A DNA stretch of 64,000 nt from positions 1,280,001 to 1,344,000 of the forward strand of contig CAXXLZ010000001.1 in assembly GCA_963675595.2 (NCBI GenBank), read 5' to 3'. A program made the position numbers and the translations under genes. This stretch comes from Thermodesulfobacteriota bacterium. GTDB lineage: Bacteria > Desulfobacterota > Desulfarculia > JACQYL01. Below, one piece after another: positions 55,606 through 64,000 of the stretch (positions are counted from its first letter, which is position 1; each line of letters starts with the position of its first letter). The notes beneath the pieces were generated by a model. It worked only from the letters and a program-made list of their open reading frames with translations, was not told the DNA's origin and ran no database searches.

Positions 55606-55861
55606 CTCGGCCGGCGCGTGCCGCCGTTCGGAATCATTCGATTTTATCTTGCCAAGTAGTCGGTTTTCGACTACATTGCGTTTCCAGTTGAACGCACGTT
55701 TCTTCGCGTGGTTCGGCCGTCCGCCCCTAAGGGCAATGCACGGCGCACGGATGGAAGGTGCGGCATGTAACAACCTCAAGGCTTAGTTCCGTCATTATAA
55801 CCAAACAAAAAAACGACCCGACACGCGGGACAGGATACGTGTGTCCAAAGAAGGGAGGAGC

Positions 55862-56614
55862 ATGCAAGGGCAGGATTTTCAGATCGTTCAAGAGATTTGG
55901 TCTCGTATTACGAGGGCGCATAAGCGGGAACAGATTCTGGTAACCTTTAACGGGATAGGTTTTGATCTTCCTATTCTCCACCGACGGGCCATGCTTCAGG
56001 ATATTTCCGCGGACCCGCTGCTGTACCAATTTCTCACGCAACGATATCAACGCACCCCCCATTTCGACATTATGCAAGTGATGGCTCAGTGGGATAGGTC
56101 GAACTGGAAGAAGTTGGACTTCTTTCTCAAGCTGTTCGGGTTGGGCGGAAAAACCCCGGGGATGAACGGCGCCCAAGTATATCCGGCCCTGAAGGAAGGC
56201 CGATATCAAGACGTGATCGACTATTGTAGACAGGATATCGAGATGACCCGAGCCCTGTTTCGGCGCATCGAACCCTGGTTTTTGATCAACCCTCCAAACG
56301 AAATTCTCGTGCTCGACATCGAGACGTGTCCGAATCAGTCCATTGATCCACACGATATTTACGAATTTGATCCGGACGTGGTGAAGCTCGGCAACCTCAA
56401 AGACCCCTTTAAAATCGAAGCCAAAAAGGCCGAAGCCGAAGCCGAATTTTGGGCCAACATCGACCGCAAAATGAGCTTCGACCCCGATGGGTGCCAGGTC
56501 GTGTGTGTCGGCATATATGATTCGTTGGAGGATGAAACTGTCGTGGTGAATGATTTGGACAATCTCCACATCAGAATGTCGTTGGAGGATGCATTGAAGG
56601 CGGTGAACGCATGA
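55862..56614 (+). CDS. DEDDy 3'-5' exonuclease (PolB-exo-like), circularly permuted
   Basis: ExoII TFNGIGFD, then ExoIII YCRQD, then ExoI LDIET. Confidence 0.82.
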   Translation: MQGQDFQIVQEIWSRITRAHKREQILVTFNGIGFDLPILHRRAMLQDISADPLLYQFLTQRYQRTPHFDIMQVMAQWDRSNWKKLDFFLKLFGLGGKTPGMNGAQVYPALKEGRYQDVIDYCRQDIEMTRALFRRIEPWFLINPPNEILVLDIETCPNQSIDPHDIYEFDPDVVKLGNLKDPFKIEAKKAEAEAEFWANIDRKMSFDPDGCQVVCVGIYDSLEDETVVVNDLDNLHIRMSLEDALKAVNA

Positions 56615-59429: not shown

Positions 59430-61565
59430 ATGACTGAAACCTGCCAAGGAGTCCTACAGGACGTCCGAATCTACAACGCCGCTTCCGGTTGGGGATTCGC
59501 TCGGCTCGTCGGCCAAGAATACAAGGTGGTTGGATGCTTCCCGGCCCTTGAGCCCGGCGACTACTGCGAATTCACCGGGGAATGGACCGAGCATCCGAAG
59601 TACGGGAAACAGTTCAAGGCGTCGTCGGTGTCCATCTCGGTCCCAAAGGATTCCATGGGCTTGCGGAAGTACCTGCAGCAGCGCTTGCCGTGGATCGGTC
59701 CCGTCGCGGCCGGAAGATTGGTCGATGATTACGGGGACCGACTCTTCGACGTCATCCAAAACAACCCCATGGAGTTGATATCCGTAAAGGGTATTACCGA
59801 AGAAAGGGCGTTGAAGATCCACGAGGCATTCCTGTCCGGCCAAAAAGACAAGGACCTGGATATCTTTTTTGCTACCCATAATTTGACCACGGGAATGGTT
59901 GCCCGGCTGGTGGAACGATACGGGGACAAGTCCAAAGCCGCGTCTACCATCAAGGCCGATCCGTATTTGCTGGCTGATGATGTTTATGGCGTCGGCTTCA
60001 AAAAGGCTGACGCCATAGCGTTGTCGGTCGGCATTCCGAAACGCTCCCCGCGGAGAATCAAGGCGGGGATACTATGGTTGCTGAAGGACGCATCCGAGAG
60101 AGCGGGCCATTGTTTTTTGCCCGCATCCGAGATGGGAAGCCTTGGATACAAGCTCCTGGAAGTCTCTCGTGGCGACCTGGGGGACCCCGTTCGTGAGTTG
60201 GCGGACGAGGACGGCGTTATTGTCGAAGGGGACAGGATTGCCCTGTCGGAACTGTATCATGCCGAGGAGGAGATTGCTTCGGCGTTGTTGCGTTTGGCGT
60301 CGGCGCCACATCACGCGGTGATGCGCTCCCTGTCTCAGGACACCTTGGATTCCCTGGATGACGATCAACGACGGGCTCTTACTCTGGCTCTCGAAAGCAA
60401 GGTAAGCGTCATCACGGGAGGACCCGGAACCGGCAAGACGTACACCATTCAAAGAATTCTGGAAGCCCTAGGAGATCGAAAGATTGCTTTGGCCGCGCCC
60501 ACGGGCAAAGCGGCGAAGAGGATGGAGGAGATGACGTCCAGGCCGGCGCAGACCATTCACCGGTTGTTGGAGTTTGTTCCCGCTCCGGCACCCGGGTTTC
60601 GTCGAAACCGGCAGAACCCATTGGATTTCGATTGCGTCATTATCGACGAGACATCCATGGTGGATGTCTCGTTGATGAAGGCATTTTTACGGGCCGTGGA
60701 TCCCGATATGACGCAGTTGATTTTTGTCGGAGACGTGGATCAGCTCCCGAGCGTAGGCCCCGGCATGGCGCTTCGGGACATGATCGACTCTGAGAAGATA
60801 CCCACGGCTCGGCTGACGACATTACACAGACAGTCTGAAAAGTCGTTTATTGCATTGAATGCCCGTGCGGTGAATCGAGGGGAAAAGCTCATTTTGAACG
60901 TAGAAAATAGCGACTTTCACTTCATTCAAGTTGAAGACAAAGACAAGATTCCCGAGAAGATTACTCAAATCGTCAACAGCGTTCCGTCTCAACCCTTCGG
61001 GGTCCCCCTATGGGACATACAGGTTTTATGCCCACAGAGGGTAGGCCCCATCGGCGTAAACGCGCTGAATCCTTTGTTGCGCCCCTTATTCAATCCGGAA
61101 GGCATGGAGCTATCCGGGTTTGGCGGGCTGTATACGGGAGACAGGGTGATTCAGACACGCAACAATTACGACCTTGGAATATTCAACGGCGAAATCGGGG
61201 AGGTTTTACTGCGACAGCCCGAACCGGAAGGAGGACCGGAAGAACTAGACTATGTCGCCGTGCAGTTTCCGCAAGGGATTGTGCCCTATTCGAAGTTGAC
61301 CTGCTCTGAGTTGCAGCCCGCTTATGCGCTGACAATTCACAAGTCTCAGGGATCGGAGTTCCCCTGCGTCATTGTTCCCTTGCACACGACAAATTTCATC
61401 ATGCTCAAGCGGCCGTTGCTGTATACGGCGATTACGCGGGCGAAACAATTGTTGGTTTTGGTTGGGAGCGAGAAAGCCATGAAGGTGGCGATTAAGACGT
61501 TGGACACGTCAAATAGGTATACGCGACTGAAAGAGATGTTATGCCAGGAGGCGGTTAATCGGTAA
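59430..61565 (+). CDS. recD2: RecD2-like SF1B DNA helicase
   Basis: HPKYGKQF; GGPGTGKT; AAPTGKAA; IIDETSM; GDVDQLPSVG; TIHKSQGSEF; LLYTAITRAK. Confidence 0.93.
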   Translation: MTETCQGVLQDVRIYNAASGWGFARLVGQEYKVVGCFPALEPGDYCEFTGEWTEHPKYGKQFKASSVSISVPKDSMGLRKYLQQRLPWIGPVAAGRLVDDYGDRLFDVIQNNPMELISVKGITEERALKIHEAFLSGQKDKDLDIFFATHNLTTGMVARLVERYGDKSKAASTIKADPYLLADDVYGVGFKKADAIALSVGIPKRSPRRIKAGILWLLKDASERAGHCFLPASEMGSLGYKLLEVSRGDLGDPVRELADEDGVIVEGDRIALSELYHAEEEIASALLRLASAPHHAVMRSLSQDTLDSLDDDQRRALTLALESKVSVITGGPGTGKTYTIQRILEALGDRKIALAAPTGKAAKRMEEMTSRPAQTIHRLLEFVPAPAPGFRRNRQNPLDFDCVIIDETSMVDVSLMKAFLRAVDPDMTQLIFVGDVDQLPSVGPGMALRDMIDSEKIPTARLTTLHRQSEKSFIALNARAVNRGEKLILNVENSDFHFIQVEDKDKIPEKITQIVNSVPSQPFGVPLWDIQVLCPQRVGPIGVNALNPLLRPLFNPEGMELSGFGGLYTGDRVIQTRNNYDLGIFNGEIGEVLLRQPEPEGGPEELDYVAVQFPQGIVPYSKLTCSELQPAYALTIHKSQGSEFPCVIVPLHTTNFIMLKRPLLYTAITRAKQLLVLVGSEKAMKVAIKTLDTSNRYTRLKEMLCQEAVNR

Positions 61566-61643: not shown

Positions 61644-62411
61644 ATGAAAATGGGTGAAGCTGCAAAGAAGATTCAAGAAGAGCAAATGAAAGAGACGACG
61701 ACTGCGCCGGCCGAGACGGAAGAAACGGAAGGCAAACGAGGAAGAAAGCCGAAGGCCAAGTCGGAGGCGGGGCCGAAACAGGAAGGCCCGATGTTTCTTC
61801 CCATCGCCGAGCGGACATTCAGGATTACCATGACGGAAACCATGCTTGGGACCATCCCGGCCAACCAGCAGATTTTTTCCGACTACGTCAATTCCAAGGC
61901 CATGACTCCGGAGGAGAGGGAGGAAGAGGCGCTGCTTCAGTCCGGGGAAATCGACGAGGAAACCGGGCTTCCGGCGAACGATCATCATACCGGATTTTTC
62001 CGCGACTCCGCGGGCATCTATCTGATGAACTACCACATCAAGGGCTTCTTGAAGGAGGCCGGGAACATCCTAAAGGAAGCCGCCAAAGTAAAGGCGTTGC
62101 GCTCGAAGATAGATAACAACGTCTTTGTGTTTCCCCGCAAAATCTACCTTGCCAAAACCCACAGCGGCGTCCTGGAACGCCCCCTGCGAGCCCAAACGGC
62201 GCAGGGGCCCCGAGTCGCCCTGGCTCAATCCCTGACCGTGGACGCCGGGATTGCCTTCAATATTACGATTCGACTCCTGGACCACAAAGAGCTGAGTTGG
62301 TCGTTGATCGAATTGCTCCTGGACTACGGGGAGCTGAAAGGTCTTGGGCAGTGGAGAAACGGCGGGTATGGGACGTTTTCCTGGGAAGACATCACCCCCA
62401 AAAAGAAGTAA
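61644..62411 (+). CDS. Stand-alone Cas7/Csm3-like RAMP protein
   Basis: First strand FRITMTETMLG; IKGFLKEA helix (Csm3 SLKG..R equivalent); C-terminal G-rich loop GLGQWRNGGYGTF; AAAGGA RBS. Confidence 0.78.
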   Translation: MKMGEAAKKIQEEQMKETTTAPAETEETEGKRGRKPKAKSEAGPKQEGPMFLPIAERTFRITMTETMLGTIPANQQIFSDYVNSKAMTPEEREEEALLQSGEIDEETGLPANDHHTGFFRDSAGIYLMNYHIKGFLKEAGNILKEAAKVKALRSKIDNNVFVFPRKIYLAKTHSGVLERPLRAQTAQGPRVALAQSLTVDAGIAFNITIRLLDHKELSWSLIELLLDYGELKGLGQWRNGGYGTFSWEDITPKKK

Positions 62412-64000
62412 CGGCAAGGTCGCCCCATTTGCCGCGCCGCCTCGGTTAAGCCAAGCTTCGTACTGCAAGAGCATCGCCCTGTTCCTCGAGGCGAGGTATC
62501 GGCGTGGCAAAGCAATGCAGTGAAATGAGGGCTCAGGCTATGCCTGGTAGTGGGTGGCACGTAAAGGCGGAGCATAGCATGGCATGGTTCTGTAACGGCG
62601 AAGCACGGCGTGGCGCCGCAACGCTCAGGCAAAGTTAGGTGTGGTGTTGCGCCGAGGGCGTTGGCCGGGCGCAGTAGGGCACCGTGAAACTCTGGAAGCA
62701 TAGGTAATCCTGAGTGTCGTTGGAGCAAGGAGGCGCGGAGGCGAAGCCCCGTTGGAGATGGCGGTGCATCGGAACGGCTAAGCCGAGCGATGAAGGGACG
62801 AGACATGCAAGGGCGGAGTGAAGCAGACCGGAGTAACGCCGCGGCATAGCGTGGGTTCAGCAGGGCAACGCTTCGGCACGGCGAAGCAGCGTGATGAAGA
62901 TGAACAAGAAGAGTGTTGCAAGGGAGCAGTAAAGTGTGGAGGAGCAGTGCATCGGCGAGGCGGAGTTGTGCGGGGTTCGTGCACGGAGAGGTAATCCGCT
63001 GAGATGATACGCACGGGCGTGGTCGCGCGCGGAAAAGCAGCGCTTGGGCGGTTCACAGTGTGGAGGCGTTTTGCTTTGGCATAGTCGCTTGAAGAGCCGT
63101 GGTGTATGGCTTTGGCAGGGCGAGGTAAGGCGGGGCAGAGCTTTGGCTTGGAGATGTGCTGCTTTCCTTTGTAACGGCAATTCATGGCGTATATGGGCAC
63201 GTTGAAGCTGCGGTACTGCATTTTACAGCAAGGAGCGTCATGCGCATCAGAGAATGCAAAGGAAAAGCAACGTAATGCAAAGGAAAAGCAACGTTCCGTT
63301 CCTTCCGGCGCAGGCGGGGTACAGCGTCGCGCTTTTTGGCTTAGGCAAAGTGAAGTTCCGCGTGACCCACCAAAGGCAAAGCTCTGTTGAGCTATGTTTC
63401 GGCGATGTTTCGTCCTACAAGGCGCAGGAACGCACAGGCAGGGCGTAGATAGGCATCGGCTTAGCGGGGTACTTACTGCGTCGGCAAGGTTGTGAGAGGC
63501 CGAGTTCGGCGTCGGCAAGGTGCGGCGTTATAACGCTGCGTAGCGCTTTGGCGTAGCGAAGTTTAGCCGAGGCGAAGTTAGGTAAGGCGACGATGCGAAT
63601 TGGCTTGGTACAGCGCTGCACGGACCTGTAATGGTTGTGCCAAGTTCTGAGCAGCCCGGAGATAAACGCAAAGGCACCGCGGCGTCTTCCTGTGCACTAA
63701 GGAGTAAAGGCGTAGCGGGGTACGGATGTGCAACGGCGGAGTAGGAACAAGGCGATGAAGCGTTGTGCGAAGGCACTGCATGGCAAGGTCATGTATACCA
63801 CGGGCGAGGTGTCGTTGGTCAAAGTTCAGCGGCGGCTTAGCTAAGCATAGTGCAGCCGGGGCTATGTAAAGCCGGCTCCGCCAAGGCGTTGCAAAGCTCA
63901 GTTGTGGCAAAGTGCGGTTCAGCGGCGGCAACGCATAGCACGACAAAGTAGCGCGACGGTAGTGCTTAGTTCGGCAAAACAGCGCGACGGCAGTGTCCAA
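62412..64000 (+). ncRNA. Putative guide-RNA array of degenerate NGYNN pentamers in 5n+1-nt units; runs off the window
   Basis: e.g. 62566 GGCGG AGCAT AGCAT GGCAT GGTTC TGTAA C / GGCGA AGCAC GGCGT GGCGC CGCAA CGCTC A / GGCAA AGTTA GGTGT GGTGT TGCGC; no credible ORF. Confidence 0.7.

What the first reader, a model, noticed from the sequence alone, without database searches (positions are those of the whole stretch)
62412..64000. Array has a higher-order grammar: units of 21/26/31/36 nt with a recurring NGYAAN|GGC junction
Seen: the pentamer phase slips by one base at regular points, giving units of 5n+1 nt that usually start with GGC. Examples: 62566-62596 (31), 62597-62627 (31), 63078-63113 (36), 63114-63144 (31), 63145-63175 (31), 63550-63570 (21), 63571-63601 (31), 63602-63632 (31), 63709-63734 (26). 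Many junctions read TGTAAC|GGC (62591, 63170), TGCAAG|GGC (62806), CGCAAA|GGC (63667), AGTAAA|GGC (63703) or TGCAAC|GGC (63729). The RAMP stop codon itself lies in AGTAAC|GGC (62407). Some stretches fit the phase less well. Inference: these are roughly 50 distinct guide units (estimated from length), and the junction could be a processing site or filament boundary, analogous to a CRISPR repeat.
Basis: partly seen in the sequence, partly recalled or inferred. Interest (0 to 1): 0.85.

Follow-up and report, generated by a model that had tools for sequence, protein, structure and literature searches.

The report
Phage VIPR guide array, staggered units

Summary
From 62412 to about 64030, 30 nt past the window end, the + strand is a non-coding run of NNNGY pentamers. 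About every 4-7 repeats one repeat carries an extra G (GGY), which shifts the register by +1. In the window 60% of slip spacings are 21, 26, 31 or 36 nt, against 18.5% in random-slip simulations; none of 200 simulations reached the observed value. The "AA" in NGYAAN is only a mild bias, seen at about 11 of 57 junctions.

The gene just upstream (61644-62411) has a Cas7-like fold. Its relatives sit beside a same-strand pentamer array in 76 of 80 phage contigs. This matches VIPR systems, made of a Vipr protein and vrRNA (bioRxiv 10.64898/2026.04.26.720920). That preprint lists YNNNG repeats and "staggered" arrays offset by 1 nt, which it did not confirm by RNA sequencing.

One 7-repeat unit (63078-63113) spells, in the published two-read-one-skip code, the conserved IREAGIF motif of phage tail-fibre genes. 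Whether junctions are true guide ends is untested, because no RNA data exist. This is a new member of a known kind. The scan has noted VIPR on other DNA many times.

The parts
61644..62411 (+). vipr gene: a stand-alone 255-aa Cas7-like RAMP protein. The first ~50 residues are a low-confidence extension; the conserved core is ~200 aa.
   Evidence: The AlphaFold2 model has mean pLDDT 84. The best Foldseek PDB hits are type VII Cas7, Csm3 and Cas7-11 (E 2e-7, TM 0.44-0.57). It has 701 homologues, all unnamed. The C-terminal GLGQWRNGGYGTF is read here as a RAMP glycine-rich loop (the loop pattern is recalled). Profile comparison with SUSP1 Vipr gives probability 64.7%, E 6.2e-5, aligning Q236-W237-R238 with D177-W178-R179.
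62412..64000 (+). vrRNA array of YNNNG/NNNGY pentamer repeats with +1 (GGY) junctions. It has about 57 units of mostly 4-7 repeats, starts at the vipr stop codon and runs on to about 64030, beyond the window.
   Evidence: No Rfam family or ribozyme was found. Folding energy is no better than shuffles (z 0.46).
63078..63113 (+). A 36-nt unit of 7 repeats. The two bases after each GY read AT-CG-GA-GC-GG-AT-TT, that is I/M-R-D/E-A-G-I/M-F/L in the NNx code.
   Evidence: Two of these genes were confirmed as PF12571.
63253..63294 (+). An exact tandem duplication of a 21-nt unit (4 repeats + 1).
   Evidence: Tandem Repeats Finder gives period 21, 2.0 copies, 100% match. Decoded slips fall at 63262 and 63283.

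Best explanation
The stretch is the guide-RNA (vrRNA) array of a VIPR system carried by a prophage.

**Proposed mechanism.**
- Inferred: the array is transcribed with, or just after, the vipr gene at 61644-62411, on the same strand.
- By homology with the solved SUSP1 complex: one Vipr protomer binds each pentamer. It holds the conserved G and the pyrimidine in its thumb and glycine-loop pockets and displays the variable bases.
- By homology: the displayed bases read double-stranded DNA of rival phages two bases at a time, skipping every third base, which is the codon wobble position. Binding silences transcription.

**What is particular here.**
- The repeat is the YNNNG variant. This fits the Asp-to-Gln change at the residue that reads the first G in SUSP1.
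- The array is of the 'staggered' kind. Every 4-7 repeats a full GGY adds one base and shifts the register.
- I take each +1 junction to be where one short Vipr-bound guide segment ends and the next begins. This gives about 57 segments that each read 12-21 bp, or 4-7 codons.

**Odds.** That this is a VIPR array: about 0.9. That the junctions bound separate guide segments: about 0.5-0.6. The confidence given for this statement as a whole is the lower figure.
For: **Protein.**
- The fold is Cas7-like.
- The glycine loop keeps the W and R that hold G2 and Y3 in SUSP1 Vipr. The residue that reads G1 (D177) is Gln here, invariant in the 30 family members aligned.

**Gene-array linkage.**
- 76 of 80 viral loci that encode a relative have at least one 200-nt window matching the NNNGY model on the gene's strand next to the gene, and 65 of 80 have four or more. 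The threshold was 8; the highest score in 600 background windows of this window was -5.7.
- In the 65 arrays, 36 lie downstream and 29 upstream of the gene, always on the same strand.
- None of the window's other neighbouring genes is conserved with it: 0 to 2 of 80 loci each.

**Grammar across arrays.**
- The spectral peak lies at period 5.10-5.24 (median 5.16) in all 66 arrays, with only low power at 5.00 (at most 2.3, against peaks of 4.8-29.2).
- Of 1400 slip spacings, the peaks are at 31 nt (20.1%), 26 (17.3%), 36 (8.4%) and 21 (8.1%), with CV 0.43. Simulated random slips give CV 0.94 and 3.7%, 4.3%, 2.8% and 5.2%.
- Unit length varies within every array; the modal length covers 12-58% of an array's units. 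This fits variable guide lengths better than a fixed structural period.

**Evolution.** In six pairs of related arrays (not independent), substitutions hit the three N positions in 142 of 1527 cases. They hit G/Y in 28 of 1003 and the extra G in 3 of 74. Indels of 5 and 31 nt occur.

**Target.** Unit 63078-63113 exactly spells IREAGIF of tail-fibre N-terminal domains in 11 lineages, in the wobble-skip register. The host genome has no such gene.

**Literature.** VIPR, its YNNNG repeats and its staggered arrays are described in bioRxiv 10.64898/2026.04.26.720920. The filament structure is in 10.64898/2026.04.26.720927.
Against: - There is no RNA evidence for this locus or for this kind of array. 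The preprint says only the ribozyme-interspersed and single-vrRNA architectures were confirmed by small-RNA sequencing.
- Sequence similarity to the characterised SUSP1 Vipr is weak: hhalign probability 64.7%, and E 0.36 against the PDB chain named 'SUSP1 Vipr protein'.
- Characterised vrRNAs have 9-16 repeats plus a structured 3' tail. Here units have mostly 4-7 repeats and no tail.
- Eighteen six-repeat units have 26 perfect NNx sites in the host genome, against 25 for permuted controls. A single unit would not be specific.
- Only 1 of the 4 units scanned gave a target-like result. Units 63675 and 63403 looked no better than the one permuted control. The 8-repeat unit at 62773 gave 4 hits, none in an open frame.
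- That control itself gave clusters of up to 4 lineages in an open frame and 6 in a closed frame.
- Neighbouring units fit the adjacent target codons at rank 2 of 39 on both sides. This speaks for reading across junctions.
Confidence: 0.55

Rival explanations
1. It is the same VIPR array, but the +1 junctions are internal punctuation inside long guides rather than guide ends. A vrRNA would span several units (10-20 repeats, as in characterised systems). The extra G would be bulged or absorbed by the filament, perhaps about once per helical turn, while the target is read on without a gap.
For: - Characterised vrRNAs have 9-16 repeats.
- The SUSP1 filament has six protomers per turn without DNA and five with DNA. 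The commonest units here have six and five repeats.
- Single six-repeat units are not specific in the host genome.
- The true neighbours of the IREAGIF unit fit the adjacent tail-fibre codons at rank 2 of 39 on each side, best at a contiguous offset. In one locus (L205) the downstream unit matches 10 of 12 bases.
Against: - The joint pattern of the central and downstream units has no exact match in viral, metagenome or genome contigs. The joint pattern of the upstream and central units has none in metagenome contigs.
- Neighbour matches are only 45-53% of bases, and they fall on codons that are conserved in the family anyway.
- Unit length varies from 21 to 41 nt within single arrays. That is hard to square with a once-per-turn structural need.
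- Windows of 9 repeats crossing junctions found no target in the host genome or in 80 VIPR loci.
Confidence: 0.3
2. The array RNA is bound by the Vipr protein but does not guide DNA recognition. It might be an assembly scaffold, or a decoy that soaks up a rival phage's Vipr protein.
For: - No target was found for most units tested.
- The array is very long (1.6 kb) compared with the ~100-nt vrRNAs characterised.
Against: - Variation between related arrays sits in the N positions, while G, Y and the extra G are kept. This is the pattern of programmable guides.
- One unit spells a conserved phage motif in the codon register.
- Published VIPR systems of several types have targets in phages.
Confidence: 0.05
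3. It is a DNA-level element, not an RNA. The 5.16-bp period would be half a turn of the double helix, marking a protein-binding or bent region such as a replication origin in the replication module.
For: - The period of 5.16 is close to half of 10.3 bp.
- The locus lies beside helicase, primase and exonuclease genes.
Against: - The motif is strand-specific and on the vipr gene's strand in 76 of 80 loci, whether upstream or downstream.
- The replication genes are not conserved with it.
- Lags 5 and 10 are equally strong, so no full-turn period stands out.
- RNA binding is shown for the protein family.
Confidence: 0.03

Closest known systems
VIPR systems with 'staggered' vrRNA arrays and YNNNG-type repeats (bioRxiv 10.64898/2026.04.26.720920: main text, Methods 'VIPR type classification', legend of fig. 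S18)
   Same: - A stand-alone phage RAMP gene flanked by a same-strand pentamer array.
- A conserved G/Y with variable N positions.
- Abutting units offset by one nucleotide.
- No ribozymes and no CRISPR repeats.
   Different: - I could not see fig. S17, fig. S18 or data S4, because supplements are closed. The VIPR type of this locus, and whether unit lengths are reported there, are unknown to me.
- The preprint did not confirm this architecture by RNA sequencing.
- This array is long: about 57 units over 1.6 kb.
- No accessory (vap) gene is conserved beside this clade's vipr.
Type II VIPR of Escherichia phage SUSP1 (Vipr + vap1 + four ~100-nt vrRNAs; structures in bioRxiv 10.64898/2026.04.26.720927)
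   Same: - A protein of ~200 aa with a RAMP fold.
- A glycine-loop W-R pair.
- Pentamer repeats on the gene's strand, both upstream and downstream of the gene.
- A target code that fits codons with the wobble base skipped.
   Different: - SUSP1 repeats are YNNGG, with up to 14 in-phase repeats and no slips seen in the one vrRNA I parsed. Each vrRNA ends in a ~40-nt structured tail.
- Here the first G is not conserved (Gln replaces Asp177), a +1 slip comes every 4-7 repeats and there is no tail.
- Protein similarity is detectable only by profile comparison.
Cas7 backbone of class 1 CRISPR effectors (Csm3, type VII Cas7, Cas7-11)
   Same: - These are the best structural matches.
- Both form a filament along a guide RNA.
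- A thumb breaks the guide-target duplex at fixed intervals.
   Different: - CRISPR Cas7 binds 6 nt per subunit without reading the sequence. There is no power at period 6.0 here.
- None of the examined neighbours matched a Cas family, and there are no repeat-spacer array or acquisition genes.

Membership tests
VIPR system (Vipr protein + vrRNA) | A stand-alone RAMP protein of about 20 kDa (RRM core, glycine-rich loop, thumb), outside any cas operon | tested here: met
   Foldseek's top hits are Cas7 or Csm3 chains (E 2e-7). The glycine-rich loop is at residues 233-245. The neighbours examined are helicase, ATPase, exonuclease, primase, methyltransferase and integrase genes, plus a few of unknown function, none matching a Cas family. 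The rest of the 64-kb window was not scanned for cas genes.
VIPR system (Vipr protein + vrRNA) | Homology to an experimentally characterised Vipr protein | tested here: inconclusive
   hhalign of the 30-sequence family profile against SUSP1 Vipr gives probability 64.7% and E 6.2e-5 over 125 columns including the G-loop. hmmsearch against the PDB chain 'SUSP1 Vipr protein' gives E 0.36. No Pfam, PHROG or NCBIfam model covers either protein.
VIPR system (Vipr protein + vrRNA) | G-loop residues that hold G2 and Y3 of the repeat (W178 and R179 in SUSP1) | tested here: met
   They align to W237 and R238. R238 is invariant and position 237 is W or F in the family. D177, which reads G1, is Gln236 here, in line with the missing first G.
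VIPR system (Vipr protein + vrRNA) | Tandem pentamer repeats with a conserved G(G)Y and variable N positions, next to vipr on the same strand | tested here: met
   The window HMM gives G 0.86 and Y 0.87. A same-strand array is found in 76 of 80 related loci.
VIPR system (Vipr protein + vrRNA) | Hypervariable N positions between related arrays | tested here: met
   In six related pairs, 142 of 1527 N positions are substituted, against 28 of 1003 G/Y positions.
VIPR system (Vipr protein + vrRNA) | Location in a phage or prophage | tested here: met
   An integrase, a phage-type primase and a methyltransferase flank the locus. 572 confirmed relatives lie in viral contigs.
VIPR system (Vipr protein + vrRNA) | Expressed vrRNAs that co-purify with the protein | not testable with these tools
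   No RNA run is listed for this stretch.
VIPR system (Vipr protein + vrRNA) | Natural targets in rival mobile elements, read by the NNx (1-nt skip) rule | tested here: inconclusive
   One of the 4 units scanned matches a conserved tail-fibre motif in 11 lineages. Two units were no better than the permuted control and one gave nothing in frame. No target was found in the host genome.
Staggered vrRNA array (sub-architecture of VIPR) | Abutting units whose registers differ by one nucleotide | tested here: met
   The window has 57 +1 junctions and 9 -1 events. The spacing peaks at 5n+1 values.
Staggered vrRNA array (sub-architecture of VIPR) | Processed RNA ends at the unit boundaries | not testable with these tools
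   There are no RNA data. The preprint also did not confirm this.
CRISPR array | Direct repeats of about 25-40 nt separated by unique spacers, with cas genes | tested here: not met
   Tandem Repeats Finder finds only one 21-nt duplication. No Rfam CRISPR repeat family matches. None of the neighbours examined matched a Cas family.

The most novel reading that the evidence does not exclude
The extra G may act as a length ruler. It would break the Vipr filament into pieces of about one helical turn. This fits the five- or six-repeat modal units and the five or six protomers per turn seen in SUSP1. Each piece would then read only 5-6 codons, skipping the wobble base. The array would be a library of motif-sized probes aimed at the most conserved peptide motifs of rival phages, such as IREAGIF of tail fibres. 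Neighbouring probes would act together to give specificity. That would be broad-spectrum recognition at the level of protein motifs, not of one genome.
Probability: 0.2. Interest if true: 0.65.

Novelty: new member of a known kind. Interest (0 to 1): 0.4.

Why it matters
VIPR is a very recent discovery, and its staggered arrays are the one architecture the authors left unconfirmed.

This locus and its 65 relatives give that architecture a measurable grammar:
- the repeat is YNNNG;
- the only punctuation is one extra G;
- units are mostly 21-36 nt;
- the mean period of 5.16 nt is shared across arrays from 65 viral contigs.

The results also pose a concrete test: are 4-7 repeat units guides in their own right, or parts of longer guides? 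The answer sets the minimum size of a programmable VIPR guide. It also bears on how these phages choose targets.

For genome annotation, the 5.16-nt spectral peak beside a small unnamed gene is a simple detector for this clade.

Tried and rejected
**Target searches that found nothing**
- Host genome (6.8 Mb, both strands): windows of 9 repeats crossing junctions under NNx, NN, NNxx and xNN, and NNx with +1 or -1 target base at slips. Also 6 repeats under NNN and NNNx, and 8 repeats under NNN with +1 at slips. Best scores equalled those of permuted controls.
- Whole units in the host genome: the six regular 7-repeat units, the 8-repeat unit and the 12-repeat unit all had 0 exact sites.
- 80 VIPR loci plus the window: NNx with 9 repeats gave 14 windows at 17 of 18 against 4 in controls, and none at 18 of 18. 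NNN with 6 repeats gave 9 against 8.
- Joint two-unit patterns: 0 matches in viral, metagenome and genome contigs.
- The third N against the target wobble base: 44 of 140 matches, which is chance level.

**RNA and strain evidence**
- No RNA holder is listed for the stretch.
- The contigs of three DNA runs laid on it showed no unit gain or loss in the array. Two runs covered it only in part, one of them with a single T put in there. All other differences and joints listed lie in the methyltransferase region.

**Other checks**
- Rfam at E up to 1 gave no family, so there are no hammerhead ribozymes.
- The promoter and terminator scan was no better than shuffles.
- RNA folding of 62950-63249 and of the 3' flank was no better than shuffles.

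**Ideas rejected**
- RecD2 as a partner of the RAMP gene: 0 of 80 loci have it.
- A conserved accessory gene: the most frequent real neighbours are SSB (17 loci) and integrase (17 loci), so there is no dedicated partner.
- Early ideas of my own (TRAP-like ring binding, primase sites, telomere-like repeats, an R-loop origin) were dropped once the VIPR papers were found.

**Limits**
- The supplementary figures and data of the VIPR preprint could not be seen.
- The third VIPR preprint (10.64898/2026.10.15.759431) was seen only as a search listing and one term search. That search found no mention of staggered arrays or processing.
Full report
**1. What is in the sequence**

- Downstream of the 255-codon ORF 61644-62411, the + strand is G-rich (36% G) and shows no codon periodicity.
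- Base identity at a given lag peaks at 5, 10, 15/16, 21, 26, 31 and 36 nt. The peaks at 26 and 31 are as high as the peak at 5.
- With DNA fetched beyond the window end, the periodic tract stops near 64030. After it come a ribosome-binding site, a 47-codon ORF, a C5 methyltransferase gene and an integrase gene, so the locus lies at one end of a prophage.
- An HMM with five phases gives the repeat N-N-N-G-Y. The usual slip is one extra G next to the phase G, so the slipped repeat reads GGY.

**2. Is the higher-order pattern more than chance?**

Yes.
- In the window, 58 decoded spacings between +1 slips have CV 0.32. Of these, 60.3% fall on 21, 26, 31 or 36 nt, and 29.3% on 31 nt.
- Two hundred simulations from the same model with randomly placed slips gave CV 0.91 (minimum 0.67), 18.5% (maximum 36.8%) and 4.0% (maximum 13.2%).
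- The AA in NGYAAN is present at only about 11 of 57 window junctions. In pooled data it is a modest enrichment.

**3. The neighbouring gene**

- The ORF has no Pfam, PHROG or NCBIfam match. It has 701 unnamed homologues of about 200 aa.
- An AlphaFold2 model built on 30 of them (mean pLDDT 84) is most like Cas7 of type VII, Csm3 and Cas7-11, with E 2e-7 and TM 0.44-0.57.
- Its C-terminal GLGQWRNGGYGTF fits the RAMP glycine-rich loop. That the loop has this pattern is recalled, not tested.

**4. The gene and the array travel together**

- A scan of viral contigs found 572 confirmed relatives, and 80 loci were kept.
- An autocorrelation score marked a periodic tract in 72 of the 80 loci, next to the gene in nearly all of them.
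- The window-trained NNNGY model scored above threshold on the gene's own strand in 76 of 80.
- In the 65 loci with four or more positive windows, the array lies downstream in 36 and upstream in 29.
- The window's other neighbours (RecD2 helicase, ATPase, exonuclease, primase, methyltransferase) are found in 0-2 of the 80 loci, so they are not partners.
- The commonest real neighbours elsewhere are SSB, integrase and cI-like repressors.

**5. The grammar is shared**

- All 66 arrays have their spectral peak at period 5.10-5.24 (median 5.16, about 31/6). Power at exactly 5.00 (0.1-2.3) and at 6.0 (0-3.0) is low against peaks of 4.8-29.2.
- A pooled HMM over 65 distinct arrays gives insertions at 0.206 and deletions at 0.04 per pentamer.
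- Of 1400 spacings, 20.1% are 31 nt, 17.3% are 26, 8.4% are 36 and 8.1% are 21. Random slips would give 3.7%, 4.3%, 2.8% and 5.2%.
- The modal unit is 31 nt in 28 arrays, 26 in 18, 21 in 7 and 36 in 6. Each array mixes several lengths.
- Between related arrays, substitutions fall in the three N positions (142 of 1527), rarely in G/Y (28 of 1003) or the extra G (3 of 74). Indels of 5 and 31 nt occur. The six pairs share members, so they are not independent.

**6. What it is**

A literature search found the VIPR preprints.
- Of bioRxiv 10.64898/2026.04.26.720920 I read the Results, the Discussion, two Methods sections and the passages that hold the supplementary figure legends.
- Of 10.64898/2026.04.26.720927 I read the outline and the first part of the Results.

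They describe the following.
- Phage-encoded stand-alone RAMP proteins (Vipr) coat vrRNAs made of YNNGG pentamers, one protomer per repeat.
- They read double-stranded DNA with the NN bases while skipping every third target base.
- There are seven types, with alternative NNNGG, YNNNG and NNNNG repeats.
- Some arrays are 'staggered', with vrRNAs derived from positions overlapping by 1 nt, so that the end of one marks the start of the next. The text says only the ribozyme-interspersed and single-vrRNA architectures were confirmed by RNA sequencing.

The locus fits this description.
- The family profile aligns with SUSP1 Vipr at probability 64.7%, E 6.2e-5.
- That alignment places Q236-W237-R238 on D177-W178-R179. 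W and R hold G2 and Y3 in the structure, and D177 reads G1.
- This matches a repeat in which only G-Y is conserved.
- In SUSP1 the one vrRNA I parsed runs 14 pentamers with no slip and ends in a tail. Slips every 4-7 repeats therefore set this clade apart.

**7. Do units behave as guides?**

I read the two bases after each GY as NNx.
- No target was found in the host genome or in the 80 VIPR loci.
- Four units were then scanned against viral contigs.
- Unit 63078-63113 (I/M-R-D/E-A-G-I/M-F/L) hit the IREAGIF motif of tail-fibre genes.
- Two of those genes were confirmed as Phage_tail_fib, PF12571.
- A pattern extended by two family codons, chosen after seeing the family, found 24 stretches, 17 of them in that context.
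- The one permuted control gave at most 4 lineages in an open cluster.
- Units 63675 and 63403 were no better than the control. The 8-repeat unit gave 4 hits, none open.
- The host genome has no PF12571 gene.

This is one suggestive target, not proof.

**8. Are junctions guide ends?**

For:
- Unit lengths vary within arrays.
- The exact match drops at the codons immediately flanking the unit.
- No joint two-unit pattern exists in three collections.

Against:
- Six-repeat units have as many perfect sites in the host genome as permuted ones, 26 against 25.
- The true neighbours fit the adjacent tail-fibre codons at rank 2 of 39 on each side, best at the contiguous offset.
- One locus matches the downstream unit at 10 of 12 bases.

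No RNA data could be brought to bear. I put separate segments at about 0.5-0.6 and multi-unit guides at about 0.3.

One coincidence is worth testing. The commonest units have six and five repeats, and the SUSP1 filament has six protomers per turn free and five on DNA.

**9. Verdict**

- The thing is a new, large member (about 57 units) of a kind published in 2026. The scan itself has noted this kind 268 times in at least 178 genomes.
- What may not be in print is the measured unit-length distribution, the shared 5.16-nt period and the single-G punctuation. I could not check the preprint's supplements for these.

Noticed in passing
L002:2041-2184 (window coordinates about 64041-64184, beyond the window end): A 47-codon ORF with a good ribosome-binding site follows the array directly. 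Its C-terminal half is hydrophobic, which suggests a small membrane protein. It overlaps the start of the methyltransferase ORF and has no Pfam match.
   Followed up: partly
window 59430-61565: The RecD2-type helicase just upstream of vipr is not found next to vipr relatives in any of 80 viral loci. It belongs to the prophage replication module and is not a VIPR accessory gene.
   Followed up: yes
L065:7500-8700 and L069:4700-6000: Two related loci have a strong 5n+1 autocorrelation tract that the NNNGY model misses on both strands. Their repeat consensus may differ, for example NNNNG.
   Followed up: no
L058:7003-7401 and 16 other loci: In 17 of 80 related phage loci an SSB gene (PF00436) lies within the ~12-kb locus fetched around the VIPR cassette. 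Integrase (17 loci) and cI/Cro-like repressors are also common there. This clade of VIPR therefore sits in the early or lysogeny region of temperate phages.
   Followed up: partly
window 62412-64000, six-repeat units: Read as NNx, 18 six-repeat units have 26 perfect sites in the host's own genome, the same as permuted controls (25). There is no sign of selection against self-matches at this length.
   Followed up: partly
L044 and L049, last ~90 nt of the array stretches: Where the array lies upstream, it runs to about 25 nt before the ribosome-binding site and start codon of vipr. Array and gene are probably one transcript there too.
   Followed up: no
window 55841-56614 and L002:2169-3317: Earlier notes of the scan flag a permuted exonuclease and a two-frame methyltransferase beside this locus. 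I confirmed only their Pfam and PHROG family matches.
   Followed up: no
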